Notes under the pieces: model-generated | Seen by the model: the letters and a program-made list of their open reading frames with translations, nothing else | Databases searched by the model: none | Told to the model about the DNA's origin: nothing | Program-made: the position numbers and the translations under genes | Source: a virus | IMG/VR virus record: IMGVR_UViG_3300032307_001129 | Span: 2,427 to 66,426 of that record | Length of the DNA stretch: 64,000 nt | Reading direction: 5' to 3' (one strand) | In this document: positions 40,281 to 60,523 of the stretch, piece after piece | Layout: each line of letters begins with the position of its first letter | Position numbering within the stretch: position 1 is the first letter of the stretch

Positions 40281-40340
40281 TGTAAATATTTTGGTTTTTA
40301 ATAAAAACGTATATATTTATATTTATATTTATTAAAAAAT

Positions 40341-40431
40341 AAGGTATCTTTGCCGATATCCTTTCGTTTGATGTCGTGGAGTTGAATCCACAAATGACCT
40401 AGAAGCCTCGATTCCCATCGAGGCTTTTTTT
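40341..40431 (+). ncRNA. putative small structured RNA (RNA-A)
   Basis: Tandem TATTTAT upstream; two hairpins; terminator AAGCCTCGAT-TCCC-ATCGAGGCTT+T run; GC-rich relative to flanks; no meaningful ORF. Confidence 0.55.
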
Positions 40432-40465
40432 CTTGTTAAAATTTTTTTTTACGGATTTAATTTGT

Positions 40466-40473
40466 TATATTTG
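40466..40473 (+). promoter_or_regulatory. Bacteroidota-type -7 element TATATTTG
   Basis: TAnnTTTG upstream of 40490. Confidence 0.5.
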
Positions 40474-40489
40474 ATGATAAATTAAAAAA

Positions 40490-40804
40490 ATGACAAACAA
40501 TGTTACAATGGTAAAATTAGATATTGAAGGTGAGTACAATAATTTTACGGATTTTTATGGTGTTAATAAAGTTATCATATATAACAATATCATAAATTTA
40601 TTTGAAGATTTTAAAGATAAAAAGAAAAAGAAATTAGTCTTAGAATTATCTGCAAATATTGAAAATATCCAATGGAAAACTGAATTGGAATTCACGAGAA
40701 AAGAAATATATGTTCTTAAACGAGATATATTACCTTTCTTTGAAGAGATTGAAGATTATGAGACATGTGAGAAAGTATTTAACTTATGTGAAACAATAAA
40801 ATAA
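40490..40804 (+). CDS. small protein with C-terminal UVR-like motif
   Basis: FEEIEDYETCEKV. Confidence 0.55.
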   Translation: MTNNVTMVKLDIEGEYNNFTDFYGVNKVIIYNNIINLFEDFKDKKKKKLVLELSANIENIQWKTELEFTRKEIYVLKRDILPFFEEIEDYETCEKVFNLCETIK

Positions 40805-40837
40805 AAAAAAGGGAAGAGTTTTTAATTCTTCCCTTTT
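40805..40837. terminator. bidirectional terminator
   Basis: AAAAGGGAAGA...TCTTCCCTTTT between convergent genes. Confidence 0.7.
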
Positions 40838-40857
40838 AAAAATTAAATTAAAATAAT

Positions 40858-41025
40858 TTACCATTCTTTTCCTGATACACCACTATCTTTAGCTAGTGTT
40901 AATCCTAACGCGGTTAAGATAGTAGTCACCATTCCGGCTTGACTGGCATTAATCCAATCCATGTAAGTTGCAAAAGATACTAAAGCTAATACTACTCCTG
41001 CTGCTGTAGTTTTCCAGTTCTTCAT
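40858..41025 (-). CDS. 55-aa two-TM membrane protein, holin-like (absent from the ORF track)
   Basis: MKNWKTTAAGVVLALVSFATYMDWINASQAGMVTTILTALGLTLAKDSGVSGKEW; late motif at 41059. Confidence 0.7.
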   Translation of the reverse strand: MKNWKTTAAGVVLALVSFATYMDWINASQAGMVTTILTALGLTLAKDSGVSGKEW

Positions 41026-41089
41026 AATTTTAAAGTTTTAAAAAAAATTTATTTATTAATAAATATTGTAATAATGGAAAATCGTCAAG

Positions 41090-41353
41090 TTATTCTTCAG
41101 TTGTTGGTTCATTTTTTTCTAAATTCTTTTTATTTATCCATTTATCAATAGAACCAATACCAAAAGAACCTAATGTTATAATTAAGAAACCATCGAAGAT
41201 GAATTCATTTATTACAAACTCTTTTCCCATCCAACCTTTTATTATGTCAATAAACATAGTTAAAACCATCATAAAAAATGCGATAAAACCTATTACAGAT
41301 TTCTCATTAATTGAGTTATTATCGTTAAATAATTCTTTTAATAATTTTCTCAT
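41090..41353 (-). CDS. two-TM membrane protein, holin-like
   Basis: Two hydrophobic segments and a charged tail. Confidence 0.55.
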   Translation of the reverse strand: MRKLLKELFNDNNSINEKSVIGFIAFFMMVLTMFIDIIKGWMGKEFVINEFIFDGFLIITLGSFGIGSIDKWINKKNLEKNEPTTEE

Positions 41354-41420
41354 TTCAACGTGTTTTATTAACTATAATTAGTATGTTAATTAACGAAATT
41401 GTATATTTATATATAAAAAA

Positions 41421-42023
41421 GTGAAAGATTTATATTTAATACTTGTTTTAATCTTATCACCGTTATTTATTCAAAATAATACCATAGACTTAAATAATGT
41501 ACCTGTTTTATTTATTGGGGATTCACATACCGCTAATCATTCATGGGGATGGCAAATCCTTCTTAGGAATAAAACTAAATTAGAATTACATAACACCGCA
41601 GTAGTTGGGAAACAATTACCTTGGATGGTTTCTATTGGTAAAAAAACAATCACACCATATTTTAAATATTGTTTTATATATGGTGGTGTGAACGACATAC
41701 ATTCAAAAAGAAATCCTTATTTGGTTTATAAAGATGTACAACATATTGTTAATATATGTAATTCAAAAAATGTTATTCCTGTTGTTATTCTTGGACTTAA
41801 TGTTAATGAATGTATAAGTGTAACAAAAGAAAAAGAATATTTTTCAATAAATTATAAAAGATATCAACAATTATTAAATGATAGTATTGTTGGTGCAAAA
41901 ATAATTAATATTAATACAATTAATAAAAATGATTGTTTTGATTGGATTTGTCACATGAAATATTCAGGTCACAAAAAATTGTCTGATTTAGTTATAAAAC
42001 AAATGAATTTTAAATCATATTAA
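41421..42023 (+). CDS. SGNH/GDSL hydrolase with signal peptide
   Basis: FIGDSHT, GGVND, DWICH...GH; hydrophobic N-terminus. Confidence 0.8.
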   Translation: MKDLYLILVLILSPLFIQNNTIDLNNVPVLFIGDSHTANHSWGWQILLRNKTKLELHNTAVVGKQLPWMVSIGKKTITPYFKYCFIYGGVNDIHSKRNPYLVYKDVQHIVNICNSKNVIPVVILGLNVNECISVTKEKEYFSINYKRYQQLLNDSIVGAKIININTINKNDCFDWICHMKYSGHKKLSDLVIKQMNFKSY

Positions 42024-42074
42024 TTTGATATTTTAATTTTTTTTTCTTATATTTTATTATATCAAATATAAAAT

Positions 42075-42761
42075 ATGTCATATTCGGAAGAAATCATCAG
42101 TGTTGTTATTTCAACAAGAAAAATCGATGATTCAAATGTACAAAAAATTAAAAAAAAGTTTTCACATCCAAGGACTGAAATATTGGTTTATGAAAATAAT
42201 AATGAATTTTCATTATCTAAATTATATAATAAAGGTTTAGAGGAATCATCAAATAATATTGTTGTTTTTATGCACGACGATATCGATATTGAAACACCTA
42301 ATGTTTCACATATTTTAAATCAATTATTTAGTAAATTTCCTGAACATGGAATTATTGGGTTAGCTGGAACTGATGAGTTGGTTAGTGGAATGTGGTGGGA
42401 AAAAAGGGATAAGATGTATGGTAAAGTAAAACATGAACATAATGGAAAAATTCATTGTAATCATTACTCAGAAAGTTTAGGGTTTAATTTAAAAGACGTT
42501 GTTACTGTCGATGGTTTATTTTTTGCCGTTCATAAAAACAGAATAAAAGAAAAATTTGATGAGGAATTCGATGGTTTTCATTTCTATGATATTCCTTTTT
42601 GTGTTTTAAATCATTTAAAAGGTGTTAAAATTGGTGTAACAACTAAAATTATGGTGATACATAAATCAATCGGTCAAGTAAATGAACAATGGATAAATAA
42701 TAAATCAAGTTTTGAAAAAAAATATGGTAAATTATTACCATTGATCGTAAAAAGTTTTTAA
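42075..42761 (+). CDS. GT2-like glycosyltransferase
   Basis: YNKGL, VFMHDD, GIIGLAG, VDGLF, FDEEFDGFHFYD. Confidence 0.8.
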   Translation: MSYSEEIISVVISTRKIDDSNVQKIKKKFSHPRTEILVYENNNEFSLSKLYNKGLEESSNNIVVFMHDDIDIETPNVSHILNQLFSKFPEHGIIGLAGTDELVSGMWWEKRDKMYGKVKHEHNGKIHCNHYSESLGFNLKDVVTVDGLFFAVHKNRIKEKFDEEFDGFHFYDIPFCVLNHLKGVKIGVTTKIMVIHKSIGQVNEQWINNKSSFEKKYGKLLPLIVKSF

Positions 42762-42796
42762 CTTTAATCTTTATATTTATAATTAAAAAACAAATT

Positions 42797-43048
42797 ATGA
42801 AAAACTTATTTGAAAAATTAAAAAACTTTTTTGGTGGTACAGAAAAAAATGAACCAACAAAAAATGAAACGATTGTTGAGGTAAAACCAGTGGTAACTGA
42901 AAAGAAACCATCTTCTAAACCATCAAAAGTTAAGAAAAAAACAACGGAAGAAATTCCTACAATCACACTTGACACTGTAACAATTACATCAAGTAAAATT
43001 TCTTCAACATCAAATGACACTGATGTTAGAGGTCCTGAGTATAAATAA
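42797..43048 (+). CDS. small Lys/Thr-rich hypothetical protein
   Basis: 83-aa ORF with TATATTTAT upstream. Confidence 0.55.
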   Translation: MKNLFEKLKNFFGGTEKNEPTKNETIVEVKPVVTEKKPSSKPSKVKKKTTEEIPTITLDTVTITSSKISSTSNDTDVRGPEYK

Positions 43049-43069
43049 TTTATTTATACTCTAAATCAT

Positions 43070-43493
43070 GGGGGTGAATTAGAATCGATTGGCGTTGGTA
43101 TTGTAAGTAGGCACGTAGTCGGATTTCATCTACGACTTTAATAAATGGTGGAAAAAATTAGACGGAGACGTTTACAAAAACATGGAAATTGTTGGTTTAC
43201 TAGCAACTTCTAACGTGGAAGTAGCCTAAGGGTAAAAACACAAAACGGGTCGGTGGACATATAACCTTGGAACAGAAGTCCCTACGGTGTGATACAACCA
43301 TAAAAGTGTCAAAGGTCTCGTTCAGAGGACTACCTGTAATTCCATGAAAATGGTAAAAGTGAACTCGACACAGTTTTCGGTAACAATGTCAAAATAGGAA
43401 CCAAATATTTGTCAGTTGTGAATTAATTGAATAAACGTGTAGTCTATTTATGATAAAACGAACAAGACCCGGTGGCGGTGACCGGCACCTCCA
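43070..43493 (+). ncRNA. ssrA: tmRNA
   Basis: 5' GGGGGTG pairs with 3' CACCTCC-A including the G3:U70 Ala determinant; ...GAC-CCGGT/ACCGG T-stem; internal tag frame 43164-43229; ~424 nt. Confidence 0.88.
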
Positions 43494-43496
43494 CTT

Positions 43497-43532
43497 AAAC
43501 AAAAAACCCACCAATTGGTGGGTTTTTTGTTT
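43497..43532. terminator. terminator downstream of tmRNA
   Basis: AAACAAAAAACCCACC AATT GGTGGGTTTTTTGTTT perfect palindrome. Confidence 0.85.
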
Positions 43533-43649
43533 TAATGTTACTTCTTAAATAAATTATTAAATAATTTGTTAAATTCTTTTCTTAAATAAATATTTGATTA
43601 AATAAAAATATATTATTAATATATATTTATTTTTAAAAAAAGTAAAGTC

Positions 43650-43755
43650 TATAAACAAACAAAGGAATCAATTTGATTCCTTTGTTGAGATTTTGATACC
43701 TCCTTTCGTTTTTTAGTTAATTTATTATCATATAGCGACCAAACCATATGAGTCT
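43650..43755 (-). ncRNA. putative small RNA carrying an extended SD (RNA-B)
   Basis: Minus strand: TATTTATTTAT, hairpin TCATATGG..CTATATGA, AAACGAAAGGAGGTATC, then 13-bp terminator stem; no ATG after the SD. Confidence 0.5.
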
Positions 43756-43780
43756 ATAAATAAATATCACCAAAAATGAT

Positions 43781-44692
43781 TTAAGCTAATTTGTTAGCTA
43801 ATATTTTTACTAATGGTAGTGTTATTATACTACCAAATGAACTTAATGGGTTACTACTTGTTTCTTTTTTTGGATTTAAATCCGCGTCACTTGAATTTTG
43901 TGCGATAAATTCACTCATTTGTGGATTATCAGCTACTTTATCTCTAAAATTTTTATCATTTTGTAATTTATCTTCAAAAGACCCAACGTTAGGTAAACCA
44001 AATAATTCTAACATATTATTTGCTACAATAAAACGTCTAAATGAATCTCTTCTATCTTTTCCTGCACCATAATTTATCCACCATTTTTGAATAAAATTAC
44101 TTGGTTCCATCCCCCTTTTTGTAATATATTTAGATAATCTTTCACCTCTATAAAAATTTTTAAGACCTGTACTAAATTTACCTCCAGTTGTTGCACTTTT
44201 CACACCTGATTTAATGGCTTCTAATGGTGTTACTTTTGGTAAAACCTTCTTTATTGATGTTAAACCTTTCTCAATACTTGACATCCAATTTTCTGGTAGG
44301 TATTTTTTGTATTTTTCGTTATTTTTTACTGACTCAAACGCTTTTGTTAATTTTGATTCGTCACCCACTAATTCTTTTAACTTACTTGTAACTTTTGGAT
44401 TTTTATTTAATGCCTCTACTAAATTATTAGTATTTTTTAATGTTTTTTTACCTACTTGTAATGTTTTAATGAATGGTTTAACTAAAATATCTCCCACAGT
44501 TGGTATTAGGGCAATTAACATTAGTGCAGCGTATAAGTTTTCACCTTTTCTTAAATAATGAATAATTAATAAAATATCTGCGACTTCTCCAATTATAGGA
44601 AAATAACCTAATGTCATTAAAATATTTTCTACACTAAATAATGCTTCATTAATTAATCTTCTTTCTTCTAATATTTGTTGTTTTGTTTTCAT
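43781..44692 (-). CDS. hypothetical protein with PT-TG-like motifs
   Basis: LGYFPIIGEVAD and LIPTVGD. Confidence 0.6.
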   Translation of the reverse strand: MKTKQQILEERRLINEALFSVENILMTLGYFPIIGEVADILLIIHYLRKGENLYAALMLIALIPTVGDILVKPFIKTLQVGKKTLKNTNNLVEALNKNPKVTSKLKELVGDESKLTKAFESVKNNEKYKKYLPENWMSSIEKGLTSIKKVLPKVTPLEAIKSGVKSATTGGKFSTGLKNFYRGERLSKYITKRGMEPSNFIQKWWINYGAGKDRRDSFRRFIVANNMLELFGLPNVGSFEDKLQNDKNFRDKVADNPQMSEFIAQNSSDADLNPKKETSSNPLSSFGSIITLPLVKILANKLA

Positions 44693-44693
44693 A

Positions 44694-45281
44694 TTAATGT
44701 ATTATTTTACAAAATCTTTCAGATATTGTTTCTGATATATTTGATTCTCTTATTACCTCACCTAGTAAATTTCCACCCAATGTTGTTGCATCGGACTTAA
44801 GGTTGACACCATAATCTTCTCTGTCAACATTCATTTGGTTAGATGCAATGTACCTAATTAAAACTTCTAATAACCCATCAATAAGTTTTGGCATACCATC
44901 ATTTGACATACATGTTTGTAAGTTTTTGAACGGTTTTAAAAGATTTATTGGGTTATAATCAGCTAAAAATTGTGCAGCGGTAGTGGAAAATCCACTACCT
45001 GCGCCAAATACTTCTCTTAGAATATATTGGATAACATATTCTTTAACACTAGACAATAAAGAATCGGTCAAAACTGAATTAAAGTCTATTTTATCTAATT
45101 GTCCTTTTATATCTATTTCACTAATATCATAACCTTCCTTAATTAATTTAGATGAAATTTCAAATATACGTTGTGTTCTATATGAATCATCTCGAATATC
45201 TTTTATTTCATTAAAAGAATTTTTTAAATTTTCTCTTCTTTCGTCGAGAATTATAGTTTTTATTTTTTGTTTTAGTTCCAC
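44694..45281 (-). CDS. hypothetical protein
   Basis: 195-aa ORF in the operon. Confidence 0.6.
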   Translation of the reverse strand: MELKQKIKTIILDERRENLKNSFNEIKDIRDDSYRTQRIFEISSKLIKEGYDISEIDIKGQLDKIDFNSVLTDSLLSSVKEYVIQYILREVFGAGSGFSTTAAQFLADYNPINLLKPFKNLQTCMSNDGMPKLIDGLLEVLIRYIASNQMNVDREDYGVNLKSDATTLGGNLLGEVIRESNISETISERFCKIIH

Positions 45282-45288
45282 TTGATTA

Positions 45289-47205
45289 TTATTTTCTCTT
45301 TATTTTTTTAAAAACTAATTTTTCTCCTTGTTTAATTTCACCATTATCAGTTGTTAAAACATAATCTTTCATATTCAAATATGTAATAAGTAATCTTTGA
45401 TTTTCATCAGATAGGTCACTTCCTTTATATATAATTCTTTCTCCTCCAAGTAGACCCTTTCGTGGGTATAAAAGACCTGCTTTTTTAAGTTTAGTATATA
45501 ATCCCCACCCTAATTCTTCATCACTTTTTTTTCGTTCTTCTGGTTTGGTCGGTTCTTCCGGAGTAATTGTTGGATTATCAATAGGACCATCCACATTAGG
45601 TGGTGTTATAACAACAGGTTCTGGGTTTGGTTTATTAAGACAAATTTTCTTAAAATTTTCTTCAGTAACACCAAACACTTCTTTATCACCTAATGGTATA
45701 AGAAAAGGAATATTATTTTTTGACCCCCAAGATTCAGCTGTTGCTTTAGTGTTTGGTCCTAATTTACCGTCAACACCTGTCATTTTTAAACATATTTGTA
45801 ATTCTGATACTAACGGACCTTTACATCCAAATGTTAATGGGAAATCATTACAATCTCTATATAAGTCTTTTTTTATTGGTGTAACCTCTTCTTTCTTTTT
45901 ATCATCCCAAATTATCTCAATACCACTTAATGGATCACTTGTACTTGTTCCACCAGAACCTTTTACTGCTCTTATAATAGTGTATATTTCATTTCTTATT
46001 TTTCTTTCACTAGGGTCATTTAGTGTGGTTTTAGATTGGAGTGTATTTTCTAAAAATTCACCACTTATTCTTTTATATGCACTTAATAATTGTTTACCTT
46101 GACCACTTTTATTATAGGTATTTAAAATGTTTTTAACATTAGTTAACATGCTAGAATTTATTACATTCCCTTTTAAATATGATACAATTTTTTCAACATC
46201 ACTACCTATATTACCACCTGTAGTGGATTGTTCTTTAACATCTGTTACCTTTCCTTCTTTACATTTCCATGTTCCTTTTCTTTTACCATCATTAGTTAGA
46301 ACTTTTCCATCGGCAAAGAATAATACACCTTCAGAATATGTATCATTTATAACTTTAACAACTAACTTACCTGATGTTACTTTAATCACTATTCCTTTTT
46401 TACTATCAAGTATCTTTTTTAAACAAGGAGCCCATTCACCTTCTAATGGTGGTTCACTAGGTATATCTTCATCTTCAATTTTATTTTGTTTAAACCAATA
46501 CCATAATAAAAATGAACCACCCACTGCACCTGCGCCTAAAAGCAGCGCTTTTTTCCAACCTATAGTTTTTAATTTTTCCCAAAATGTTGGGTCTTTTGGA
46601 TTTGTTAGTTTTGTGGTGTCTGTTGGATCCGTTATTTTTTTCGGTTTATTAGTTGAAATATCAACATCACCTTTTTTAAGAGTTTGTGGACGATCATATG
46701 GTTTTCCTGTTTTTGGGTTTATTTGATTAAATTTCTTTTGTACGATTTTTGTTATTGCGTCGTCACTATATCCTTCTAGTTTTAAAGCCTTTTCATATGC
46801 CGGTTGTCCTTTGGCAAATTCTGCTGCGTGTTTTGTATTGAATTTTTCGTTTCTAACTAAATTTTCTGTTGCAATATCAATTAAAGTTGCATTTTTGGTA
46901 TTTGATTTTAATATACTTAATTCTAACGCACCTTTTAATCGACCCGTTAATCTATTACCCTTTAATGCAACTAATAAATTTTCAGATGAATTAATTCCTG
47001 ATTTTATTAATTCGGCCTTTATTTTAGTATCTTTATTCATCATTTTAAGGTAACCCTCTAATTCATTAGCGGCTATTTTAGCGTCCAGTGCTGCCGCTTG
47101 AAATAGATCTTCATTTAACATTTTTTCATTGGTAATCAATTTATTATTAATTGATTCCATAAGATTCATGTATTTTCTAATTAATAAACTATTTTTATTT
47201 TCCAT
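45289..47205 (-). CDS. membrane-anchored protein with peptidoglycan-binding domain
   Basis: TM ALLLGAGAVGGSFLLWYWF; LTFGCKGPLVSELQ...VDGKLGPNT (PG_binding_1-like). Confidence 0.65.
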   Translation of the reverse strand: MENKNSLLIRKYMNLMESINNKLITNEKMLNEDLFQAAALDAKIAANELEGYLKMMNKDTKIKAELIKSGINSSENLLVALKGNRLTGRLKGALELSILKSNTKNATLIDIATENLVRNEKFNTKHAAEFAKGQPAYEKALKLEGYSDDAITKIVQKKFNQINPKTGKPYDRPQTLKKGDVDISTNKPKKITDPTDTTKLTNPKDPTFWEKLKTIGWKKALLLGAGAVGGSFLLWYWFKQNKIEDEDIPSEPPLEGEWAPCLKKILDSKKGIVIKVTSGKLVVKVINDTYSEGVLFFADGKVLTNDGKRKGTWKCKEGKVTDVKEQSTTGGNIGSDVEKIVSYLKGNVINSSMLTNVKNILNTYNKSGQGKQLLSAYKRISGEFLENTLQSKTTLNDPSERKIRNEIYTIIRAVKGSGGTSTSDPLSGIEIIWDDKKKEEVTPIKKDLYRDCNDFPLTFGCKGPLVSELQICLKMTGVDGKLGPNTKATAESWGSKNNIPFLIPLGDKEVFGVTEENFKKICLNKPNPEPVVITPPNVDGPIDNPTITPEEPTKPEERKKSDEELGWGLYTKLKKAGLLYPRKGLLGGERIIYKGSDLSDENQRLLITYLNMKDYVLTTDNGEIKQGEKLVFKKIKRK

Positions 47206-47231
47206 TTTTTTATTTTTTTATTTTTTTATTT

Positions 47232-48470
47232 TTAAATATCATCGTAATTGTACACAGACTCAATATTACTATTTTTTAATGATGATAACAAAGCATCTTC
47301 ATATTCCTCTTCTTTATGTTTTCCATAAACACCAATACCTGTAACAGGTACTAATGTATTTGCAGCTGCTGATGTTTTTGTTCCGCCACCAAGTTTTGAA
47401 GTTAATTTTCCAGGTGCGGATAAAACTTTTCCAGCACCTTTTAATATTGAACCAATTAGATTTATTAATTTATTTAAAACTGTTGTTAATCCACCCATAA
47501 CACCTGATAAAAATTTATAGAACATAGGTGATTTTGTTTTTAAATGTACTAAGGCTTTTTCCATTAATCCAACAACTTTAGAAGACGATGATTGTATAGT
47601 TTCTAAAAACGTAGTTAATTTTTTTGAATTTTTAACTGCTTGTGATACCGCTTCAGATGTTTTACCATATTTAGTTATTAATCCGGTAACCATATTTTTT
47701 GCAACTTTTGCAGACGCACCAGCAAAAACTAATCCCATAACATCAGTTGCAAAAAATAATAATCTCCACCCTGTAGATAATTCAGTATCTTCATATTTAC
47801 CGGTCATGAATTCATAAACATCTAATCCGACAACAATAGCCCAAGGTAACATTTTAAGTGTAACACCTACACCTGATGCCATTAATATTGCATCAAGTAC
47901 TATTCCAATAGGGTGATATAAAGCACCTCTAATTTTTCTAGCAACATAAAGTGCACCTTTTTTTAATAAATCAACAATACGATTCCAATCCCCTTCTGAA
48001 ATTGCAATACCAAGTTTTTTTAATCCATCCCAACTTGTCTTTACAAAATCTGACACACCAGAAACCGCAGATGAGACAGTTTCTTTTCCCCAATCTGCAA
48101 CATTTTTAAGTATACCTTCTTCTAATAATTCCTTTATGTAAGGTTTTAATGTACTCATATTTTGAGTAGATTCTGTAATAACAAATGATTTTAAAGAATT
48201 TAAAACATTTTCTTTAATTTGTTTTGGTACATTAGTTGCTACTTTAAAAGAATGTGTTAGAAAAAATTTGAAGTTATCAAAATTCTCCCAAATATTACCT
48301 ATTTTAGTTTTATTTTGAATATCATATAATTCATCTAAGAAAACACAATATTTTTCATCTGGTGATAACCATTCGGTGATTACAATAGTGTCTTTTACAC
48401 TTGATACACCATATAAATTTAAAATATGTGTTTTATCTGATTCTGATATTAAAAGTTTATTATATAACAT
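47232..48470 (-). CDS. hypothetical protein with Gly/Ala-rich hydrophobic helices
   Basis: 412-aa ORF; hydrophobic central region; ISESDKTHILNLY. Confidence 0.6.
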   Translation of the reverse strand: MLYNKLLISESDKTHILNLYGVSSVKDTIVITEWLSPDEKYCVFLDELYDIQNKTKIGNIWENFDNFKFFLTHSFKVATNVPKQIKENVLNSLKSFVITESTQNMSTLKPYIKELLEEGILKNVADWGKETVSSAVSGVSDFVKTSWDGLKKLGIAISEGDWNRIVDLLKKGALYVARKIRGALYHPIGIVLDAILMASGVGVTLKMLPWAIVVGLDVYEFMTGKYEDTELSTGWRLLFFATDVMGLVFAGASAKVAKNMVTGLITKYGKTSEAVSQAVKNSKKLTTFLETIQSSSSKVVGLMEKALVHLKTKSPMFYKFLSGVMGGLTTVLNKLINLIGSILKGAGKVLSAPGKLTSKLGGGTKTSAAANTLVPVTGIGVYGKHKEEEYEDALLSSLKNSNIESVYNYDDI

Positions 48471-48476
48471 TTTAAT

Positions 48477-48701
48477 TTATTTTAATCTATTCCCCTTATC
48501 TCTCTTTAATAAAGAACCAACAACGTCTGACCACTTAGTTAACCCTATTTGATTACCAGGACCTCTGGTTACGCCAGACTCCCATTTACCTACTTCAGGA
48601 TAACCTTGACCACCTGATGAGGGGGTAGAGGTTGCGGTATCTTGTTCGTCAATACTTTTTATTAGTTTTTTATATTGTTTTTCTGATATGATTATTTTCA
48701 T
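48477..48701 (-). CDS. small hypothetical protein
   Basis: MKIIISEKQYKKLI N-terminus; KWESGVTRGPGN. Confidence 0.65.
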   Translation of the reverse strand: MKIIISEKQYKKLIKSIDEQDTATSTPSSGGQGYPEVGKWESGVTRGPGNQIGLTKWSDVVGSLLKRDKGNRLK

Positions 48702-48770
48702 ATTTTATAAATATTTTAAATTGAACGTTTATTATAGTAATATACTAAAAAAGTATTTGAATATAAATAT

Positions 48771-49139
48771 TTACTCATCGTAAATAGTTTCATCCATTTT
48801 AGAATATAATTTTATATATTGACCAGCCTTAGCATTTGCCTCATCTTCTATTTCACCACCTATGTCTGGTGGTGGTGTTTTTAATCTACCATCTTCATAT
48901 TGTTTATGATGTACCATTTCATGAGCAATACTTCTCATAACATCAACTAAAGACCTATTTTTTGCGTTTATTCTAATTATTTTATTCTTTTTAGAATAAT
49001 CATAATTTGCGGTAGTTTTTAATTCACCTCTACCGTTTTGAAGAACAATTGTTGGACATTTTTCAATCCCAAGTTCTTTTTTTACGAATTTTACAAATTC
49101 AGTAATTTTTTGTTTTTTGTTATCTTCTAAGAAATCCAT
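48771..49139 (-). CDS. zincin-like metallopeptidase
   Basis: SIAHEMVHHKQ...EDEANA (HExxH...E). Confidence 0.75.
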   Translation of the reverse strand: MDFLEDNKKQKITEFVKFVKKELGIEKCPTIVLQNGRGELKTTANYDYSKKNKIIRINAKNRSLVDVMRSIAHEMVHHKQYEDGRLKTPPPDIGGEIEDEANAKAGQYIKLYSKMDETIYDE

Positions 49140-49203
49140 ACTTTATAAATATATTCGTTTAATATATACAACTTAATGTTTTTTTTTTATAATTATCTAT
49201 ATT

Positions 49204-49527
49204 ATGGATTGGTACTCTATTCAATATCTTTATTCTAATTCAATGGAATTATTTTGTTCAACAATGTTTCCAAACGTTGGAGTTCCATCTATTTCTGTAC
49301 TTGAATATTATGATAATAAAAAACTATATAATTTTTTTGATAAACAAGGTATATTTCTAACAATAGAAATGTATACAAAAAATAATTGGACGTATACCAT
49401 ATCCACAGAAAATGAAAAAGTCATTCTGACATCAAAAGAATCTAAAAATAAAAGAGAAGACATCGAAAATGATGGATTCGAAGAATGTTTTAGATTATTA
49501 GAAAAAAAAATCATAGAAATAAAATGA
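49204..49527 (+). CDS. hypothetical protein
   Basis: 107-aa ORF. Confidence 0.55.
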   Translation: MDWYSIQYLYSNSMELFCSTMFPNVGVPSISVLEYYDNKKLYNFFDKQGIFLTIEMYTKNNWTYTISTENEKVILTSKESKNKREDIENDGFEECFRLLEKKIIEIK

Positions 49528-51328: not shown

Positions 51329-51387
51329 ATTTTTTTTATTATAATCAAAAATTATATATTTTTTTACATCAGCAATAAATTATTATA

Positions 51388-53923: not shown

Positions 53924-53924
53924 A

Positions 53925-55196
53925 TTATTTTTTTTTAATTATTGAAGTTATACTATTCCCATTATTTAAATAATATATTTCACAAAATTCTATATTTTCT
54001 GATAGATATTTTTCTTGTTCTTCATTTAAATAATCACTTTTTATTTTATTTTTTATATTAAAATATTCCAACATTTTCAATGTTGTTGTTTTTGTCGGAT
54101 CACCCCATTGAAATATAGATTTTTCAGGCATTAAACATTCAACACTTGTATGTAAATCCTCTATTATATAAATTCCACCTGATTTTAACATTTTAAAAAG
54201 TATGGCGAATGTAATTTGTTGGTCATACATTTTATGTGACCCATCATCCAAAATAATATCGACATTTTCTATTTTATTTAAAAAATCATACAATTCTTCA
54301 GAATTAGATTGGTCACATTTAATAACTTCAATATCATCATCAACAATATCTTCTTTTAAATCGACACCATATATTTTAGCATTAGAAAAAAATCTTTTAA
54401 AAACTTTTAATGAATTTCCGTCTAATGTACCAATTTCAACTAATTTTTTTACTTCATTTTTTATTGGGAAAAACACATCTTGGTATACTTGATTAAAATA
54501 ATTATGTAAATAATGTTTATCTGTTGGATAAATTTCACCTAAGTCCATTAAACTATTAGTATCAACAATTGGTTCAATATTTAATAGTTTATAATACATT
54601 GCATCAATTGTTCTATTTCTCAAATTACCATATGAAAATGCGTGGAATATAAATTCATTACCATTGTGTGTTGATGCATTTAATTCATGATTTTCTATTA
54701 TAGAAAATTTTTCTTTTTTTTCTAATGTTTGATATAATAACCCTATACAAGTTTGGTCATGCCATAAACCCGTTTTATATTGAGGATATTCTTCACCTAT
54801 TAACCACCAATCTTCTAAAAATTTTTTACTAAATTCGTCATTTTTTACAATCATGACACCAGCATTTACTAATGATGGTCCATAATCTTTAGTCATTATA
54901 ATACTAACATTTTCTTCAATAAAGTCTTCTATTTTTTTATTATTGTTTGTTATTATTGCATCCATATCTAAAAACAACACATAATCACAATCAGGATTAT
55001 CAAGTAAAATTGATTTTATTAAATGAGGTTTGTACCAAGTAATTGATCTACCTTCTAATTTTTCGATTATTTTTTTCGTGTCAGATTCGACATAATATTC
55101 ATATCCATTTTCATTACAATATTTTTTATTTATTTCTATTGTAAATTTAGCATATGGAACATTATTTGTATAAAATTGTGTAACAATTATTTTCAT
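53925..55196 (-). CDS. GT34-like glycosyltransferase fused to class I SAM methyltransferase
   Basis: DYVLFLDMDA, NAGVMIV, HDQ; then TDK, LVEIG, IILDDGSH, GGIYIIED. Confidence 0.75.
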   Translation of the reverse strand: MKIIVTQFYTNNVPYAKFTIEINKKYCNENGYEYYVESDTKKIIEKLEGRSITWYKPHLIKSILLDNPDCDYVLFLDMDAIITNNNKKIEDFIEENVSIIMTKDYGPSLVNAGVMIVKNDEFSKKFLEDWWLIGEEYPQYKTGLWHDQTCIGLLYQTLEKKEKFSIIENHELNASTHNGNEFIFHAFSYGNLRNRTIDAMYYKLLNIEPIVDTNSLMDLGEIYPTDKHYLHNYFNQVYQDVFFPIKNEVKKLVEIGTLDGNSLKVFKRFFSNAKIYGVDLKEDIVDDDIEVIKCDQSNSEELYDFLNKIENVDIILDDGSHKMYDQQITFAILFKMLKSGGIYIIEDLHTSVECLMPEKSIFQWGDPTKTTTLKMLEYFNIKNKIKSDYLNEEQEKYLSENIEFCEIYYLNNGNSITSIIKKK

Positions 55197-55229
55197 GTAT
55201 TTTATTTATTTATTTATTTATTTATATTA

Positions 55230-56489
55230 TTAATATAAAATCCCTTCGATTTTTTCACACCATCCTTTTGATGAGGAATATGGCCATACAATCCATTTTT
55301 TCGGTGTTTTTTCGGTATTGAATGTTCTCCATACTTTATAGTAATTATCTCCGAAATCTAATTTAATACTGTTTAATTCGTTAACATCGGCATCTTGTCT
55401 ATACATAGTTTCACCTATTTCGTTTTCAAATGCTACGACCCAAAATTCATAATCTGTTTCAGGTACTTGATGTGGATATATATCTATACAGTGTTTAAAT
55501 ATTGTTAAAAAAGAATTTGAAAATTCTTCACCATATAATGGAATGTTTGGTGGGTATTTATGGTCTAACGTATCTTGTTGCACACCTCTTTTTTTAAAAG
55601 ATATTCCTGAGTATCTTTCGTAATCTTCCAATGTTCTTTCTTTTCCAAAACCATAAAACCCGAAATCAATGTCATTTATCTCACCATCCATTTCAAATAA
55701 TTTTCTATTTCTTTTGTGACATTCGATATTCCTTAAATGCCAAGATTTATCGTCATCCCATTGTTTAGCCCTACCTTTTCTAGTGTACTCGTGCCAAGCA
55801 ATTACTTTATGTGGATGAAATAAATCGTATCCATGTGTATATGCCCTAACCGCAATTGAAATCTCCTCACCATGAAAATAATAATTTGGGTCATGAGGAA
55901 CATCTTTTACAAATGAACCTAATGTAAAACAAAAATGTGCAGAATAAAATCTTGATGGAACAGGTTCGGTTCTATCTTTATAATCATCTATTGATGCTGG
56001 TAAAAAGAAAATAGCCCCTTCAGGAATAAACCTATCAAAAGTCATTTTCCAAGGTGTCTCAACTCTACCTTCAGGGTCATTATCCGGATCAAAAGAAGAT
56101 ATATAAGACGTTAATAATGGTTTTACGTGACCTTTTTCTTGTAATTGTTTAATCATTGAGATACATTCCACATCCCAATCTTGGACAAATCTATGATGTG
56201 AATCTAATTGAAGAGTATATTCTTCATTATCATAAAGTTGTTGTAACATATGTCTTGCCCAACATGCACCTTTTGATATTTTATAACTAACATCTATAAT
56301 TTTAAATCTATCGTCATTTTTGTATTCATCTAAATTATCCCAAACATCTTCATTAGAACGTTGCAATGTTATCCCAAAAACCAAATTTTCGGGATGTTTC
56401 GCTTTTTCGATACAATCTTTTATGGTTGGTTTTAATTGTGGGTCACGATATGATGCTATTTGAATAAAAATCTTACCATTTTCTAACAT
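55230..56489 (-). CDS. GT60-family polypeptide GlcNAc transferase
   Basis: IFIQIASYRDP, GACWAR, LQLDSHHRF, FHGEEI, AYTHGYDLFHP; start at MLENGK. Confidence 0.8.
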   Translation of the reverse strand: MLENGKIFIQIASYRDPQLKPTIKDCIEKAKHPENLVFGITLQRSNEDVWDNLDEYKNDDRFKIIDVSYKISKGACWARHMLQQLYDNEEYTLQLDSHHRFVQDWDVECISMIKQLQEKGHVKPLLTSYISSFDPDNDPEGRVETPWKMTFDRFIPEGAIFFLPASIDDYKDRTEPVPSRFYSAHFCFTLGSFVKDVPHDPNYYFHGEEISIAVRAYTHGYDLFHPHKVIAWHEYTRKGRAKQWDDDKSWHLRNIECHKRNRKLFEMDGEINDIDFGFYGFGKERTLEDYERYSGISFKKRGVQQDTLDHKYPPNIPLYGEEFSNSFLTIFKHCIDIYPHQVPETDYEFWVVAFENEIGETMYRQDADVNELNSIKLDFGDNYYKVWRTFNTEKTPKKWIVWPYSSSKGWCEKIEGILY

Positions 56490-56563
56490 AAATTTTTTTT
56501 TAAAAAATAAACTTTTATTTATAAATAGTAAACTTTTAATTTTTTTATTATCTTGCAAAAAAA

Positions 56564-56917
56564 TTGATTATGAAAACTAACTATCAACCAATTGTTGTGA
56601 ATAATGCAACTAAAATGTTTAAAGTTTTAGAAGAAGAAAACTTTTTTAATGAATTTGAAATTAAAGACAAACAATTTGTTTTTGATTATTTCTGTGATTT
56701 CTTTACTGAAAAATTTATTAAAGGTGAATATCAAGATACCGACATAACAATTTCATTTGATGAAATGGAAAAGTGTTTGTTAGAGATTACAATTAAAGAT
56801 ACATTATATTCGTTAACTAAAGAAGGTATTGTAAATGTTGTAGAAGACGAAAATAATGAGGAACAATTTTTTTTAACTGGTTTAGGTAAAAATATAGCAA
56901 AAAAATTGGATAATTAA
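56564..56917 (+). CDS. hypothetical protein
   Basis: 117-aa ORF; C-terminal FFLTGLG, winged-helix-like. Confidence 0.55.
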   Translation: MIMKTNYQPIVVNNATKMFKVLEEENFFNEFEIKDKQFVFDYFCDFFTEKFIKGEYQDTDITISFDEMEKCLLEITIKDTLYSLTKEGIVNVVEDENNEEQFFLTGLGKNIAKKLDN

Positions 56918-57669
56918 AGTTCAAAAGTTTTTAAAAACTCTTTTCCTGATTTTTTATAACTTTCTTTTGATTCATCTTTTGGATCTTCAGTATATTGCCA
57001 ATTCCATGAAAGTTCTTTTTTAACATCGAAACCAAAAAATGTTAATACATTTTTTTGTATATCCACAACGTCTTTACCATTCCAGTTTTGACCAACTGCA
57101 ATAATACCAGAAGAAATATCTTTTAATAAATTAGATTCACCTAATGTTGAATGTCTATTCTCTAACCATGTTAATCTTTCTATTAAATTTTGATATATGG
57201 CATTCATTTGACCCCATCTTATTGAACCGAAAAATAAAACAGTATCACTTTCAAATAAAACTTTAGTTATTTTCCATAATTCATCATCTGGATTATTAAT
57301 GTTTCTCCAACATCTATGATGACCTGTTGGATTTTTTTCATCATCCTTTAGTGATGCTTTTTTAAGTCCACATTGATTCCCATCCATATGTGAAACATTT
57401 GCTTCACATGTGTATATCTTTAAATCAGGTACCTCAATTAAAGTTACTTTGTTATTACCTAAATAAGATTGAATAGCCATTGCTAACCTTGTTGATTTAG
57501 GTTGTTCTTTTAGTTCTTTTTCCGCCCATTCACCTCTGTTAGAGGTTGTTAAAAATAAAATCTTTTCTTTCTTTTCAAGAAACTTAACCGTTTCCATTAA
57601 TTTTTTATAATGTATATTATCTTTTTTTAATGTTGGGTCAATTTCTTCAATTAGATTTAATAGTTTCAT
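56914..57669 (-). CDS. NADPH-dependent FMN reductase/flavodoxin-like protein
   Basis: ILFLTTSNR, LKIYTCE, DDELW, SDTVLFFGSIRWG, LIERL. Confidence 0.7.
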   Translation of the reverse strand: MKLLNLIEEIDPTLKKDNIHYKKLMETVKFLEKKEKILFLTTSNRGEWAEKELKEQPKSTRLAMAIQSYLGNNKVTLIEVPDLKIYTCEANVSHMDGNQCGLKKASLKDDEKNPTGHHRCWRNINNPDDELWKITKVLFESDTVLFFGSIRWGQMNAIYQNLIERLTWLENRHSTLGESNLLKDISSGIIAVGQNWNGKDVVDIQKNVLTFFGFDVKKELSWNWQYTEDPKDESKESYKKSGKEFLKTFEL

Positions 57670-57995
57670 TACTTATTTTTTTCGTCAATTTGATTTGACT
57701 TATACGACATTTTTTTATGTTCTTTAATTTTATTTTTAAGTTGTTTTATTAGACTATGTGAATTGTTTAAATTTTCAGTCACATTTTTTAATCTATTATT
57801 ACAAATTAATTTTAAACCTTCAGGCATCGAATCATTTACTTTTCTAAGTTCTTTAACTGTCTCAATAAGTTGATTTTCAAATTCTTCGATTTTATATTGT
57901 ATTTTATTATAGTCCTCTCTACGAATTTTTTTTGTTTCTTCGGAAAGGATTTCTTTTATTTTACTTCTTATTATTGCTTCGTTAATATTTGACAT
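57669..57995 (-). CDS. coiled-coil hypothetical protein
   Basis: 108-aa ORF. Confidence 0.6.
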   Translation of the reverse strand: MSNINEAIIRSKIKEILSEETKKIRREDYNKIQYKIEEFENQLIETVKELRKVNDSMPEGLKLICNNRLKNVTENLNNSHSLIKQLKNKIKEHKKMSYKSNQIDEKNK

Positions 57996-58011
57996 TGAGG
58001 TATTTTTAGAA

Positions 58012-58242
58012 TTATACTGTAAATTCTTTATCTTCAGCTTTAGTTAATTCACCATCTCTTTTCATACCTTCTTTAATGTATGTTCTAATGAGTTTAGAAA
58101 CGGTCATGTTTTTGTGGTCAGCAACTTTTTCAATCTCCCTAAAATACGCAGGCATAACTCTAAATGATAACATTTGAACTAATTGTTTTGATTTTGGAGT
58201 ATTTGGAAATTTCTCGTCTTCGTTAAAATCTTTTAAATTCAT
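58012..58242 (-). CDS. ribbon-helix-helix-like DNA-binding protein
   Basis: MLSFRV...IEKVA...MTVSKLIRTYI; start chosen at MNLKDF after the late motif. Confidence 0.6.
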   Translation of the reverse strand: MNLKDFNEDEKFPNTPKSKQLVQMLSFRVMPAYFREIEKVADHKNMTVSKLIRTYIKEGMKRDGELTKAEDKEFTV

Positions 58243-58266
58243 TTTATTAATATTTTTATATAAATA

Positions 58267-58298
58267 TTTGTTAATATACAAATATTTTCGTAGATTTG
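58267..58298 (+). promoter_or_regulatory. Bacteroidota sigma-A promoter
   Basis: TTTG(58267)-N20-TAGATTTG(58291). Confidence 0.65.
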
Positions 58299-58321
58299 GC
58301 ATAATAAAAAGATAAATCATA

Positions 58322-58675
58322 ATGGAAAAAAAAGAAACATTAAATCCGGTAGCATATTGTGAAATAACATATCCTGAAATGACATCAGAATTTAAAAAAA
58401 TAATGGAAGAACAATATATATTGTTTTGTAAAAAACAAATGAATTATGGACCCAGTAATATTTCAGGAGGTACTTCACTAAGAACTGAAGAAGATATTAA
58501 ATTCTCTTTAATGGGGTTATTTTTTAGAATGAATGATAAGGTACAAAGATTGAAACAATTGGTTGTGTTAGGTAATGACGATACTGTTGGTGAGTCTATA
58601 GATGATACGTATCAAGATCTAAGTGTATATGGTATTATTGCACAAATCGTCAAAAGACAAAAGTGGGGTCAATAG
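58322..58675 (+). CDS. DUF1599/nucleotide-modification-associated domain protein
   Basis: KKQMNYG, RMNDKVQRL, ESIDDTYQDLSVYGII. Confidence 0.75.
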   Translation: MEKKETLNPVAYCEITYPEMTSEFKKIMEEQYILFCKKQMNYGPSNISGGTSLRTEEDIKFSLMGLFFRMNDKVQRLKQLVVLGNDDTVGESIDDTYQDLSVYGIIAQIVKRQKWGQ

Positions 58676-58719
58676 TTTTTTTAAAAACTAAAATATTTAT
58701 ATAAAACGAAAGGAATATT

Positions 58720-59079
58720 ATGAAAACTAACTTAAATCATCCTACATTTTTGTTGTTCTTAGATACAGTTGTGTCTAATATTTTAACAAATATTAAAGTA
58801 GACAATTATTTTTCCTTAACAAAGGAAAAGAAAACACCTATTCAGTATTTAACTTTAAAAATTATTTCACAATTAATAAAAGTTAGAATTAAATTAACAA
58901 ATGAAGATTTATTGGAATTTATTAATATTCTAATAAAGAAAAATGAAGATTCAGAACAATATGAATTGGCAGGGATTTTAATTGATGTGGTTAATAATTT
59001 CGAATCGCTTAACGAAAAAATTACTGATGTTAAAAAAGTCAAAAGAACTATTAAAGTAGACAAAACACCAAATGAATAG
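58720..59079 (+). CDS. hypothetical protein with UVR-like motif and a strong SD leader
   Basis: EDSEQYELAGILID; leader AAACGAAAGGA. Confidence 0.6.
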   Translation: MKTNLNHPTFLLFLDTVVSNILTNIKVDNYFSLTKEKKTPIQYLTLKIISQLIKVRIKLTNEDLLEFINILIKKNEDSEQYELAGILIDVVNNFESLNEKITDVKKVKRTIKVDKTPNE

Positions 59080-59085
59080 TTGAAT

Positions 59086-60442: not shown

Positions 60443-60523
60443 TTTTTATTTTAAATATACTGTTTTTTTTTCGTTTTTTAAATATTTAATCTAAATTTGA
60501 GATATTTATAAATAAAAAAATAC

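What the first reader, a model, noticed from the sequence alone, without database searches (positions are those of the whole stretch)
40341..58722. Three non-coding loci share a complementary 11-nt core: possible phage sRNA/sponge/target circuit
Seen: RNA-A (+ strand) carries GATA-TCCTTTCGTTT at 40355-40369, whose reverse complement is AAACGAAAGGA-TATC. RNA-B (- strand, 43695-43711) reads AAACGAAAGGA-GG-TATC. The leader of gene 58720 reads AAACGAAAGGA-A-TATT-ATG (core 58704-58714). All three lie in non-coding DNA shortly downstream of the TATTTAT motif. I found no other copy by eye, and a CG-containing 11-mer is rare in such AT-rich DNA. Inference: RNA-A could pair over about 14-15 nt with the ribosome-binding site of 58720, one of the few SD-led genes here, and RNA-B could titrate RNA-A. 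RNA-A lies directly behind clpC and the target encodes a UVR-like motif protein, so the circuit may time Clp adaptor expression. A protein-binding DNA or RNA motif is an alternative explanation.
Basis: partly seen in the sequence, partly recalled or inferred. Interest (0 to 1): 0.88.

Follow-up and report, generated by a model that had tools for sequence, protein, structure and literature searches.

The report
Phage small-RNA, decoy and target circuit
A giant lake phage and its relatives keep two small non-coding RNA genes and the start of one protein gene that can pair with each other and tend to change in step, which points to an RNA-run switch inside the phage, though the RNAs themselves have not been observed.

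Summary
AAACGAAAGGA occurs exactly three times in the window, at the stated places. Word frequency alone is unremarkable: about 14 such triple words are expected per window. It is, however, the only one lying wholly in non-coding DNA (0 of 100 simulations).

RNA-A (about 40339-40431, +) is a conserved structured RNA behind clpC. It was found in 74 of 80 related loci and in at least 120 IMG/VR contigs, and matches no Rfam family. RNA-B (about 43752-43646, -) is an inverted paralogue of RNA-A with its own promoter-like motif and terminator. It is complementary to RNA-A in two blocks.

Orthologues of gene 58720 keep ACG 6-7 nt behind TATTTAT, followed by a stretch complementary to RNA-A, in 14 of 16 genomes. 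Clade-specific changes match across the loci: 3 U with 3 A against 4 U with 4 A, CUC with GGG, and C:G against U:A.

The independent events are few, there are exceptions, and no transcript ends were seen. The Clp-adaptor idea is unsupported.

This scan reached the same reading earlier on another genome (e1-5679399).

The parts
40314..40332 (+). RNA-A promoter-like element: three overlapping TATTTAT copies
   Evidence: One search lists TATTTAT at 40314, 40320 and 40326. The block ATATATATTTATAT is invariant or nearly so in the 56 distinct sequences aligned.
40339..40431 (+). RNA-A, a small RNA of about 90 nt. The start is inferred; the end is the U run of the terminator.
   Evidence: nhmmer finds it behind clpC in 74 of 80 loci. 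In the consensus structure, 98.6% of cells are paired and 10 of 19 pairs change on both sides; 0 of 500 shuffles reach this. No Rfam family matches.
40343..40360 (+). RNA-A 5' hairpin. Its loop CUUUGCCGA (40348-40356) is block 1, complementary to RNA-B in relatives.
   Evidence: Helix 1: pair 7:22 occurs as UA 29, AU 13, GU 4 and CG 1. Block 1 pairing with RNA-B is shown. In this window block 1 has two C.A mismatches.
40359..40369 (+). RNA-A seed TCCTTTCGTTT, the reverse complement of the 11-mer. It is unpaired in the consensus fold apart from its first two bases.
   Evidence: Alignment columns 24-50 are unpaired.
40376..40391 (+). RNA-A second hairpin, GTGGA-GTTGAA-TCCAC, with an invariant loop
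   Evidence: Helix 2: 4 of 5 pairs change on both sides.
40403..40431 (+). RNA-A intrinsic terminator
   Evidence: helix 3; G.U at 88:99 in 35 of 48 sequences. A T run follows in all 48 rows.
43756..43766 (-). RNA-B promoter-like element: two overlapping TATTTAT copies on the - strand
   Evidence: ATATTTAT lies just 5' of the RNA-B hairpin in the relatives printed (GTATTTAT in one of three).
43646..43752 (-). RNA-B, a small RNA of about 105-110 nt. It has a 5' hairpin with the loop GGTTTGGTCGC, an A-rich linker, the core with GGAGGT, and a terminator.
   Evidence: Alignment and fold. Model R1 finds it in further genomes. The - strand folds better than the + strand in 18 of 18 cases, mean -35.3 against -23.4 kcal/mol.
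43695..43711 (-). RNA-B core AAACGAAAGGAGGTATC. It pairs with the RNA-A seed over 15 bp with a GG bulge, and holds GAAAGGAGGT.
   Evidence: The duplex energy with RNA-A in the window is -19.5 kcal/mol.
43680..43688 (-). RNA-B block 2 (TCAACAAAG on the - strand), the counterpart of the RNA-A loop. It lies in the 5' strand of the RNA-B terminator.
   Evidence: It is fully complementary in most relatives and has two mismatches in the window.
58694..58700 (+). TATTTAT promoter-like motif of gene 58720
   Evidence: It is present in all 16 orthologous leaders.
58704..58719 (+). Short leader of gene 58720, holding the 11-mer and an AAGGA ribosome-binding-like site. The inferred RNA start is near 58705-58707.
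   Evidence: ACG sits 6-7 nt after TATTTAT in every leader that keeps the complement. Six ORFs of 60 aa or more start 4-6 nt after TATTTAT.
58720..59079 (+). Candidate target gene, 119 aa, predicted as a five-helix protein of unknown function
   Evidence: pLDDT 81.4. No family or fold match was found.

Best explanation
RNA-A is a trans-acting antisense small RNA of about 90 nt. It is made from its own TATTTAT-type promoter directly behind clpC. Its unpaired stretch CCUUUCGUUU pairs with the first 9-12 nt of the short-leader mRNA of gene 58720. This covers the only ribosome-binding-like element (AAGGA, 6 nt before AUG) and so most likely blocks initiation.

RNA-B is an inverted paralogue of RNA-A, made from its own promoter on the other strand. 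It carries the same ACGAAAGGA word extended to a full GGAGGU. In most relatives it also carries a second block that pairs with the loop of the RNA-A 5' hairpin. RNA-B therefore binds RNA-A more strongly than the mRNA does and acts as a decoy that sets how much free RNA-A there is.

Shown: the conservation, the structures, the complementarity and the matched changes. Inferred: transcription, the RNA ends, the direction of regulation and the decoy role.
For: 1. Placement. The 11-mer is the only repeated G/C-containing 11-mer confined to non-coding DNA (0 of 100 simulations).

2. RNA-A.
- It is conserved behind clpC in 74 of 80 loci and matches a pattern in at least 120 IMG/VR contigs.
- Its fold has 10 of 19 covarying pairs, reached by 0 of 500 shuffles, and the seed is unpaired.
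- The gene that follows it in the window directly follows it in only 2 of the 68 related loci that carry that gene. It is therefore not the leader of that gene.

3. RNA-B.
- It has its own promoter motif, placed after an upstream terminator in several relatives.
- It folds better on the - strand in 18 of 18 cases.

4. Leaders. 14 of 16 genomes keep at least 8 consecutive pairs with their own RNA-A.

5. Matched changes.
- The RNA-A seed has 3 U where RNA-B has 3 A in 7 genomes, and 4 U where RNA-B has 4 A in 9 genomes. The leaders read CGAAAGG against CGAAAAG accordingly.
- G005 and G014 have CCUCUCG in RNA-A and CGGGAGG in the leader. G006, the sister of G005 by ClpC, has CCUUUCG and CGAAAGG.
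- At the block 1 position, counted by hand from the sequences printed, the pairs are C:G in 8 genomes, U:A in 8, U.G in 3 and C.A in 2.

6. Energies. A genome's own RNA-A pairs better with its own partner than with other genomes' partners. For the leader, means are -13.4 against -11.9 kcal/mol (permutation p = 0.017, 9 genomes). For RNA-B, means are -25.7 against -23.7 (p = 0.0003, 15 genomes).

7. Distribution. G005 (92% complete) has RNA-A and the leader but no detectable RNA-B. This fits RNA-B as an accessory modulator.
Against: - No RNA has been seen. The contigs of RNA libraries laid cannot show ends or strand and may contain DNA.
- The matched changes come from few independent events. 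On a ClpC tree the U count changes once, the A count twice, Y three times and R four times. Only 2-3 independent pairs exist, too few for a test. The permutation p-values are not corrected for relatedness.
- There are exceptions. The leader complement is lost in G002 and G052. RNA-B did not follow the CUC change in G014 and G015, leaving an A.C mismatch. G051 and G052 need a shifted register. In the window and G001, block 1 has two C.A mismatches.
- Of about 7 classes of within-genome differences between RNA-A and RNA-B, 4 are wobble-compatible and 3 are not. This is my reading, and it is no better than chance.
- Duplex energy alone is not specific. In a scan of both strands of the window, RNA-B ranks about 11th and the leader is not among the top 14.
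- RNA-B arose by inverted duplication, which gives complementarity without any function.
- All three units use the same promoter type, so no timing difference is visible.
Confidence: 0.55

Rival explanations
1. The functional pair is RNA-A with RNA-B only. RNA-B is an RNA with a very strong ribosome-binding sequence, acting as a ribosome or anti-SD decoy or as a tiny non-AUG reading frame. RNA-A is its antisense antidote. The match to the 58720 leader is a side effect of an A-rich, SD-like leader.
For: - RNA-A and RNA-B pair in two blocks at -19.5 to -32 kcal/mol. RNA-A and the leader reach only -6.5 to -17.
- RNA-B holds GAAAGGAGGT and an invariant ATCTC 6-7 nt further on.
- The leader complement is lost in 2 of 16 genomes.
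Against: - The leader followed RNA-A in the CUC/GGG change where RNA-B did not.
- G005 keeps RNA-A and a complementary leader without a detectable RNA-B.
- The conserved part of the leader is ACGAAA rather than the GGA of a ribosome-binding site: G007 reads ACGAAAAAAAAA.
- The ATC-started frame in RNA-B varies from 6 to more than 30 codons.
Confidence: 0.2
2. The shared word is a binding site for a phage protein, either a DNA operator or an RNA-binding site. The copies change together because the protein's specificity changed, not because the RNAs pair.
For: - In the leader the word sits at about +1 to +10 of the promoter, an operator-like place.
- Changes shared by all copies in a clade are also expected for a co-evolving protein and its sites.
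- A CopG-like repressor match lies next door at 58012-58320.
Against: - The word lies at quite different distances from the three promoter motifs: about 3, 25 and 50 nt. In RNA-A it is in the opposite orientation.
- Copies within one genome differ in ways that keep pairing but break identity. Examples are the G020 RNA-B AAATGAAAGG, the G061 RNA-B CGAAAGGG against RNA-A CCUUUUCG, and the G005 leader CGGGAGG against RNA-A CCUCUCG.
- A second, unrelated block also co-varies between RNA-A and RNA-B.
Confidence: 0.12
3. There is no circuit. RNA-A is a conserved RNA with some other job. Locus B is a decaying inverted copy of it. The leader match is chance in A-rich, SD-like sequence.
For: - About 14 triple 11-mers of this kind are expected per window.
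- Inverted duplication explains the complementarity.
- Independent events are few, and no transcripts were seen.
Against: - Locus B is kept, with its promoter motif, structure and G.U-dependent strand bias, across clades whose ClpC proteins are only 73-89% identical to the window's. This is not decay.
- The leader word is kept at a fixed distance from the promoter across the same clades.
- 0 of 100 simulations give an all-intergenic triple word.
Confidence: 0.1

Closest known systems
AgvB anti-sRNA of EHEC prophage Sp5, which acts against the host sRNA GcvB. Source: passages read in the review PMC12197685. The primary paper, Tree et al. 2014, was not read.
   Same: A phage-borne small RNA carries a copy of the mRNA target site of a base-pairing sRNA and so counteracts that sRNA. 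RNA-B likewise carries the same ACGAAAGGA word as the 58720 leader.
   Different: - AgvB acts on a host, Hfq-dependent sRNA and relieves host genes. Here the sRNA, the decoy and the mRNA are all phage genes.
- The decoy is an inverted paralogue of the sRNA and has a second pairing block.
- No Hfq gene was found in 5 records of this phage group, and the host is unknown.
- Nothing here has been shown experimentally.
Bacterial sRNA sponges in general, for example the Caulobacter sponge RNA (PMC12559287; only the search listing and the start of the abstract were seen). SroC/GcvB and ChiX/chb are recalled from memory and were not checked.
   Same: A three-part logic of regulator RNA, competing RNA and mRNA.
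   Different: As I recall them, known sponges are mostly derived from mRNA or tRNA-spacer fragments. RNA-B is a free-standing gene with its own promoter motif and terminator, and is homologous to its partner.
Small RNAs described for virulent or jumbo phages, for example the phiKZ differential RNA-seq study (PMC8244752; search listing only) and the table of phage sRNAs in PMC12197685.
   Same: Non-coding RNAs encoded by large lytic phages.
   Different: None of the passages I saw describes a pair of complementary phage sRNAs with a phage mRNA target. There is no sequence or Rfam relation.
Rfam families (4,227 models)
   Same: Only sub-threshold noise over RNA-A: MicC at 23.7-26.2 bits against a cut-off of 90, STnc180 at 25 against 50, and AgrB at 23.5 against 40.
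   Different: No match reaches a gathering score for RNA-A or RNA-B in the window or in two relatives. Both are undescribed families by that test.

Membership tests
Trans-encoded base-pairing small RNA (RNA-A) | A free-standing unit with its own promoter and an intrinsic terminator, not the leader of the next gene | tested here: met
   The promoter-like block is invariant and a terminator with a T run is present in all 48 distinct sequences. The window's downstream gene directly follows RNA-A in only 2 of the 68 related loci that carry it. Promoter activity itself was not tested.
Trans-encoded base-pairing small RNA (RNA-A) | A conserved secondary structure that leaves a conserved seed unpaired | tested here: met
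   98.6% of cells are paired and 10 of 19 pairs change on both sides; 0 of 500 shuffles reach this. Columns 24-50, which hold the seed, are unpaired.
Trans-encoded base-pairing small RNA (RNA-A) | Seed complementarity to a target's translation start region, kept by compensatory change | tested here: met
   14 of 16 genomes keep it. The 3U/3A against 4U/4A change and the CUC/GGG change match in both partners. Independent events are few.
Trans-encoded base-pairing small RNA (RNA-A) | A discrete transcript of the predicted size and strand | tested here: inconclusive
   Only contigs of three RNA libraries could be laid. They cannot show ends or strand, and none of the listed pieces covers 40340-40405.
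Trans-encoded base-pairing small RNA (RNA-A) | A pairing-dependent change in target expression | not testable with these tools
   This needs reporter or in vitro assays.
sRNA sponge / anti-sRNA (RNA-B) | Carries a mimic of the mRNA target site and pairs with the sRNA seed | tested here: met
   RNA-B and the leader share ACGAAAGGA. RNA-B pairs with RNA-A at -19.5 (window) to -32 kcal/mol. Its own partner pairs better than other genomes' partners, p = 0.0003, uncorrected for relatedness.
sRNA sponge / anti-sRNA (RNA-B) | Non-coding | tested here: met
   In the sequences printed, no ATG, GTG or TTG lies at the usual spacing after GGAGGT. The frame from the invariant ATC varies from 6 to more than 30 codons (read by eye).
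sRNA sponge / anti-sRNA (RNA-B) | Lowers the activity of the sRNA on its target | not testable with these tools
   This needs an experiment.
Any Rfam family | A score at or above the family's gathering threshold | tested here: not met
   Only tmRNA (RF00023) passes, and that is a different locus.
UVR-motif Clp adaptor (product of gene 58720) | A match to the UVR motif (PF02151) or to a known adaptor fold | tested here: not met
   The window protein has 0 Pfam families even at E up to 10. UVR appears in 1 of 9 orthologues at E = 0.032. Foldseek against the PDB gives no match at E <= 0.001. The profile search against PDB sequences gives a best E of 0.49.

The most novel reading that the evidence does not exclude
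The pair is not chiefly about one gene. RNA-B presents a 10-nt perfect ribosome-docking sequence (GAAAGGAGGT) with no reading frame. RNA-A presents the matching pyrimidine stretch. Together they could form a phage-run buffer that binds and releases the free 3' tail of the small ribosomal subunit. This would switch SD-led initiation on or off in a host, and a phage, whose genes mostly lack such leaders. The 58720 leader would be one read-out of that switch.
Probability: 0.1. Interest if true: 0.85.

Novelty: new variant of a known kind. Interest (0 to 1): 0.62.

Why it matters
Post-transcriptional control by small RNAs is well known in bacteria and in a few prophages, but little is known about it inside large lytic phages.

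This lineage of about 300-kb lake phages is found in at least 120 public viral contigs. It appears to carry a self-contained three-part RNA circuit of regulator, decoy and phage mRNA. The decoy arose by inverted duplication of the regulator.

If confirmed, this would give two new RNA families and a natural example of how a sponge is born from its own sRNA. It would also offer a handle on translation control in phages that mostly use leaderless or very short-leader mRNAs.

The comparative pattern makes clear predictions that a few gel shifts, a reporter assay or one stranded small-RNA library could test.

Tried and rejected
- RNA-A as a tRNA-like gene or a known RNA family. ARAGORN finds nothing and Rfam finds nothing for RNA-A or RNA-B. 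The second hairpin resembles a tRNA T arm only loosely, so I dropped the idea.
- RNA-A as an attenuator of the next gene. Rejected, because that gene is directly downstream in only 2 of the 68 related loci that carry it.
- Locus B read on the + strand as a same-sense paralogue of RNA-A. Rejected for three reasons: the promoter motif is conserved on the - strand, the terminator's U run is on the - strand, and the - strand folds better in 18 of 18 cases.
- A small peptide in RNA-B. The frame length is not conserved.
- Target ranking by duplex energy. The first attempt, with whole 5' regions, was dominated by long loops. The window-wide scan with the 22-nt seed did not single out the leader. Energy alone is uninformative here.
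- A second candidate target at 60476 (-), where AAACGAAA follows a TATTTAA. The leaders of that gene printed for four relatives lack the word, so it is taken as chance.
- Phage-encoded helpers. No Hfq (PF17209) and no RNase III (PF14622) were found in 5 records, 3 of them at least 92% complete.
- Expression. 20 runs hold part of 40000-44000, 3 of them RNA libraries. Their contigs cover much of 39900-49200 and, in one run, 57230-59583. They give no ends or strands, and the listed pieces do not cover RNA-A. This is no evidence either way.
- Function of the target protein. Pfam, PHROGs, an AlphaFold2 model with Foldseek against the PDB, and a profile search against PDB sequences gave nothing usable.
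- The search for related loci with the 119-aa protein found no relatives. The genome search on the relatives' records did.
- A phylogenetic sign test of co-variation was not possible, because there are too few independent pairs.
- Literature searches found no description of these RNAs. They cover open-access text only, and supplements were not seen.

Full report
**What is in the sequence.** AAACGAAAGGA occurs three times in the window and three times in the whole 66,426-nt viral record: twice on the - strand and once on the + strand. The record is estimated to be about 21% complete, so the phage genome is probably about 300 kb. The window has about 26% G+C.

**Is it more than chance?** For this one word the expected count is about 0.05. 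The word was picked after reading, however. In 60 simulated windows, about 14 words of this kind appear three or more times (11-mers with at least 4 G/C, either strand). Three copies are therefore not remarkable in themselves. The placement is remarkable. With a crude ORF mask (93.3% coding), this is the only such word whose copies are all non-coding, and none of 100 simulated windows produced one. Each copy lies behind a TATTTAT motif on its own strand.

**RNA-A.**
- The ClpC-like gene at 38268-40280 has many relatives in IMG/VR: 263 confirmed stretches, with the best 80 kept at 73-89% identity.
- The roughly 160 nt behind clpC are recognisably conserved in 74 of the 80 loci. Of these, 22 carry the exact 11-mer at that place (my count of the list).
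- An alignment of 48 distinct copies shows an almost invariant ATATATATTTATAT, a variable spacer of about 6 nt, and then the RNA.
- The RNA has four parts: a short 5' hairpin with the conserved loop UCUUUGYCGA; an unpaired stretch CCUUU(U)CGUUUU; a second hairpin with the invariant loop GUUGAA; and the conserved word GACC followed by an intrinsic terminator.
- The fold is well supported. 98.6% of cells are paired and 10 of 19 pairs change on both sides. 0 of 500 shuffles reach this, and slid controls fall to 32-53% paired.
- No Rfam family and no tRNA or tmRNA model matches it.
- The gene that follows RNA-A in the window is directly downstream in only 2 of the 68 related loci that have it. RNA-A therefore travels with clpC and is not a leader of the next gene.
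- A degenerate pattern for the 5' half of RNA-A hits at least 120 IMG/VR contigs, once each in the 80 contigs listed.

**RNA-B.**
- Five close copies show, on the - strand, a conserved ATATTTAT motif, a 5' hairpin with the invariant loop GGUUUGGUCGC, and an A-rich linker. Then come the core AAACGAAAGGAGGU, an invariant AUCUC 6-7 nt further on, and a terminator hairpin followed by UUUGUUYGUU.
- Several conserved pairs are G.U, so they exist only on the - strand.
- The - strand folds better than the + strand in 18 of 18 copies, mean -35.3 against -23.4 kcal/mol.
- A covariance model built from the five copies found RNA-B in 3 of 5, 10 of 20 and 6 of 28 further records (strong hits only).
- It found none in G005 (92% complete), G010 or G011.
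- In several relatives the RNA-B promoter motif follows a terminator of the upstream gene, so RNA-B is a separate unit.
- There is no start codon at the usual spacing, and the frame opened by the invariant AUC varies from 6 to more than 30 codons.

**RNA-B is an inverted paralogue of RNA-A.**
- The reverse complement of RNA-B runs parallel to RNA-A: CTTTGYCGA, an insertion of about 11 nt, then CCTTTCGTTTT. In G017 the similarity continues through the second hairpin.
- Local alignment scores are 29-34 against shuffle means of 17-18 (sd about 3.3) in four relatives. In the window the score is only 25.
- The two RNAs are therefore complementary in two blocks, not one.
- Predicted duplexes are -19.5 kcal/mol in the window, where block 1 has two C.A mismatches, and -22 to -32 in relatives.

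**The leader of gene 58720.**
- Orthologues were found in 15 further genomes. Every one has TATTTAT upstream.
- All but G002 and G052 have ACG whose A lies 6 or 7 nt after that motif, followed by a purine stretch complementary to that genome's own RNA-A.
- In the window, six ORFs of 60 aa or more begin 4-6 nt after a TATTTAT. This suggests leaderless messages that start about 5-7 nt after the motif.
- By that inference the 58720 message begins at (A)ACGAAAGGA. RNA-A would then pair with its first 9-12 nt, including AAGGA 6 nt before AUG.

**Matched changes.**
1. Clade 1 has CCUUUCG in RNA-A, CGAAAGG in RNA-B and CGAAAGG in the leader. Clade 2 has CCUUUUCG, CGAAAAGG and CGAAAAG. The tally is 3/3 in 7 genomes and 4/4 in 9. 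G061 has 4 U against AAAG, which keeps pairing through G.U.
2. G005 and G014 have CCUCUCG in RNA-A and CGGGAGG in the leader: one compensatory pair and one G.U. G006, the sister of G005 by ClpC, has CCUUUCG and CGAAAGG.
3. In block 1 the variable base of RNA-A and its partner in RNA-B are C:G in 8 genomes, U:A in 8, U.G in 3 and C.A in 2. G040 and G048 combine C:G with the 4/4 state, so the two sites assort separately.
4. A genome's own RNA-A pairs better with its own partner than with other genomes' partners. For the leader p = 0.017 with 9 genomes. For RNA-B p = 0.0003 with 15 genomes.

**What weakens the case.**
- The permutation tests ignore relatedness.
- On a ClpC tree of 19 genomes the states change only one to four times. 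There are 2-3 independent pairs, too few for any test.
- RNA-B did not follow the CUC change in G014 and G015.
- G051 and G052 need a shifted register, and G052 and G002 have lost the leader complement.
- Wobble-compatible and incompatible differences are about equally common.
- Duplex energy does not single out the leader in the window.
- Complementarity between RNA-A and RNA-B comes for free from the duplication.
- No transcript was observed. Contigs of three RNA libraries cover parts of the region but give no ends or strands.

**The target protein and the Clp idea.** The 119-aa product is predicted as a five-helix protein (pLDDT 81.4). It has no Pfam, PHROG, PDB-sequence or Foldseek match. 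The UVR motif appears in 1 of 9 orthologues at E = 0.032. I found nothing that ties it to ClpC beyond the position of RNA-A.

**Reading.** The best account is a phage-internal antisense circuit. RNA-A pairs with the 5' end of the 58720 message and probably blocks initiation. RNA-B, born from RNA-A by inverted duplication, carries a copy of the target site plus a second pairing block and competes for RNA-A. I put about 0.55 on this reading. The rivals are: that only the RNA-A and RNA-B pair matters, that a protein reads the word, or that nothing functional links the loci.

**Comparison with what is known.** The closest described case is the prophage anti-sRNA AgvB, which mimics the targets of host GcvB (review PMC12197685, passages read). 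Here all the parts are phage-encoded, and the decoy is a paralogue of the regulator. My four literature searches found no description of these RNAs.

**Earlier work in this scan.** A follow-up on another genome reached the same reading (e1-5679399). I tested it independently here.

Noticed in passing
window 43070-43496 (+): A phage tmRNA gene. Rfam RF00023 scores 49.0 bits against a cut-off of 47 (E = 1.4e-17) in the sensitive search. ARAGORN missed it, as did the default-filter Rfam run. Its T loop is unusual in the window and in G001 and G003, but ordinary in G002 and G004. A 406-nt contig of one RNA library spans 43083-43479.
   Followed up: partly
whole window: TATTTAT occurs 91 times on the two strands. 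Six ORFs of 60 aa or more begin 4-6 nt after it, which suggests a class of leaderless or nearly leaderless messages.
   Followed up: partly
window 40000-44000: About half of the sampled 31-letter words of this stretch are held by runs from lake, marine, aquaculture, sludge and other metagenomes of 13 studies. Close relatives of this phage therefore seem widespread. The habitats were not checked further.
   Followed up: no
L099 (record G004), downstream of RNA-B on its strand: In G004 a short open frame with two CxxC pairs lies between RNA-B and the tmRNA region. The window has no such frame there. This was read by eye from the sequence printed and was not analysed.
   Followed up: no
window 58012-58320 (-): The 102-aa gene divergent from the 58322 and 58720 genes gives a weak PHROG match to a CopG-like repressor (E = 6.3e-6). 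It is a candidate if the shared word were a protein-binding site.
   Followed up: no
L165 and L170 (records G053, G054): Two records of 41-43 kb, rated 100% complete, match the degenerate RNA-A pattern with a CCTTTCCG variant. They have no RNA-B and far fewer candidates. They may be chance hits or a distant smaller phage. Not examined.
   Followed up: no
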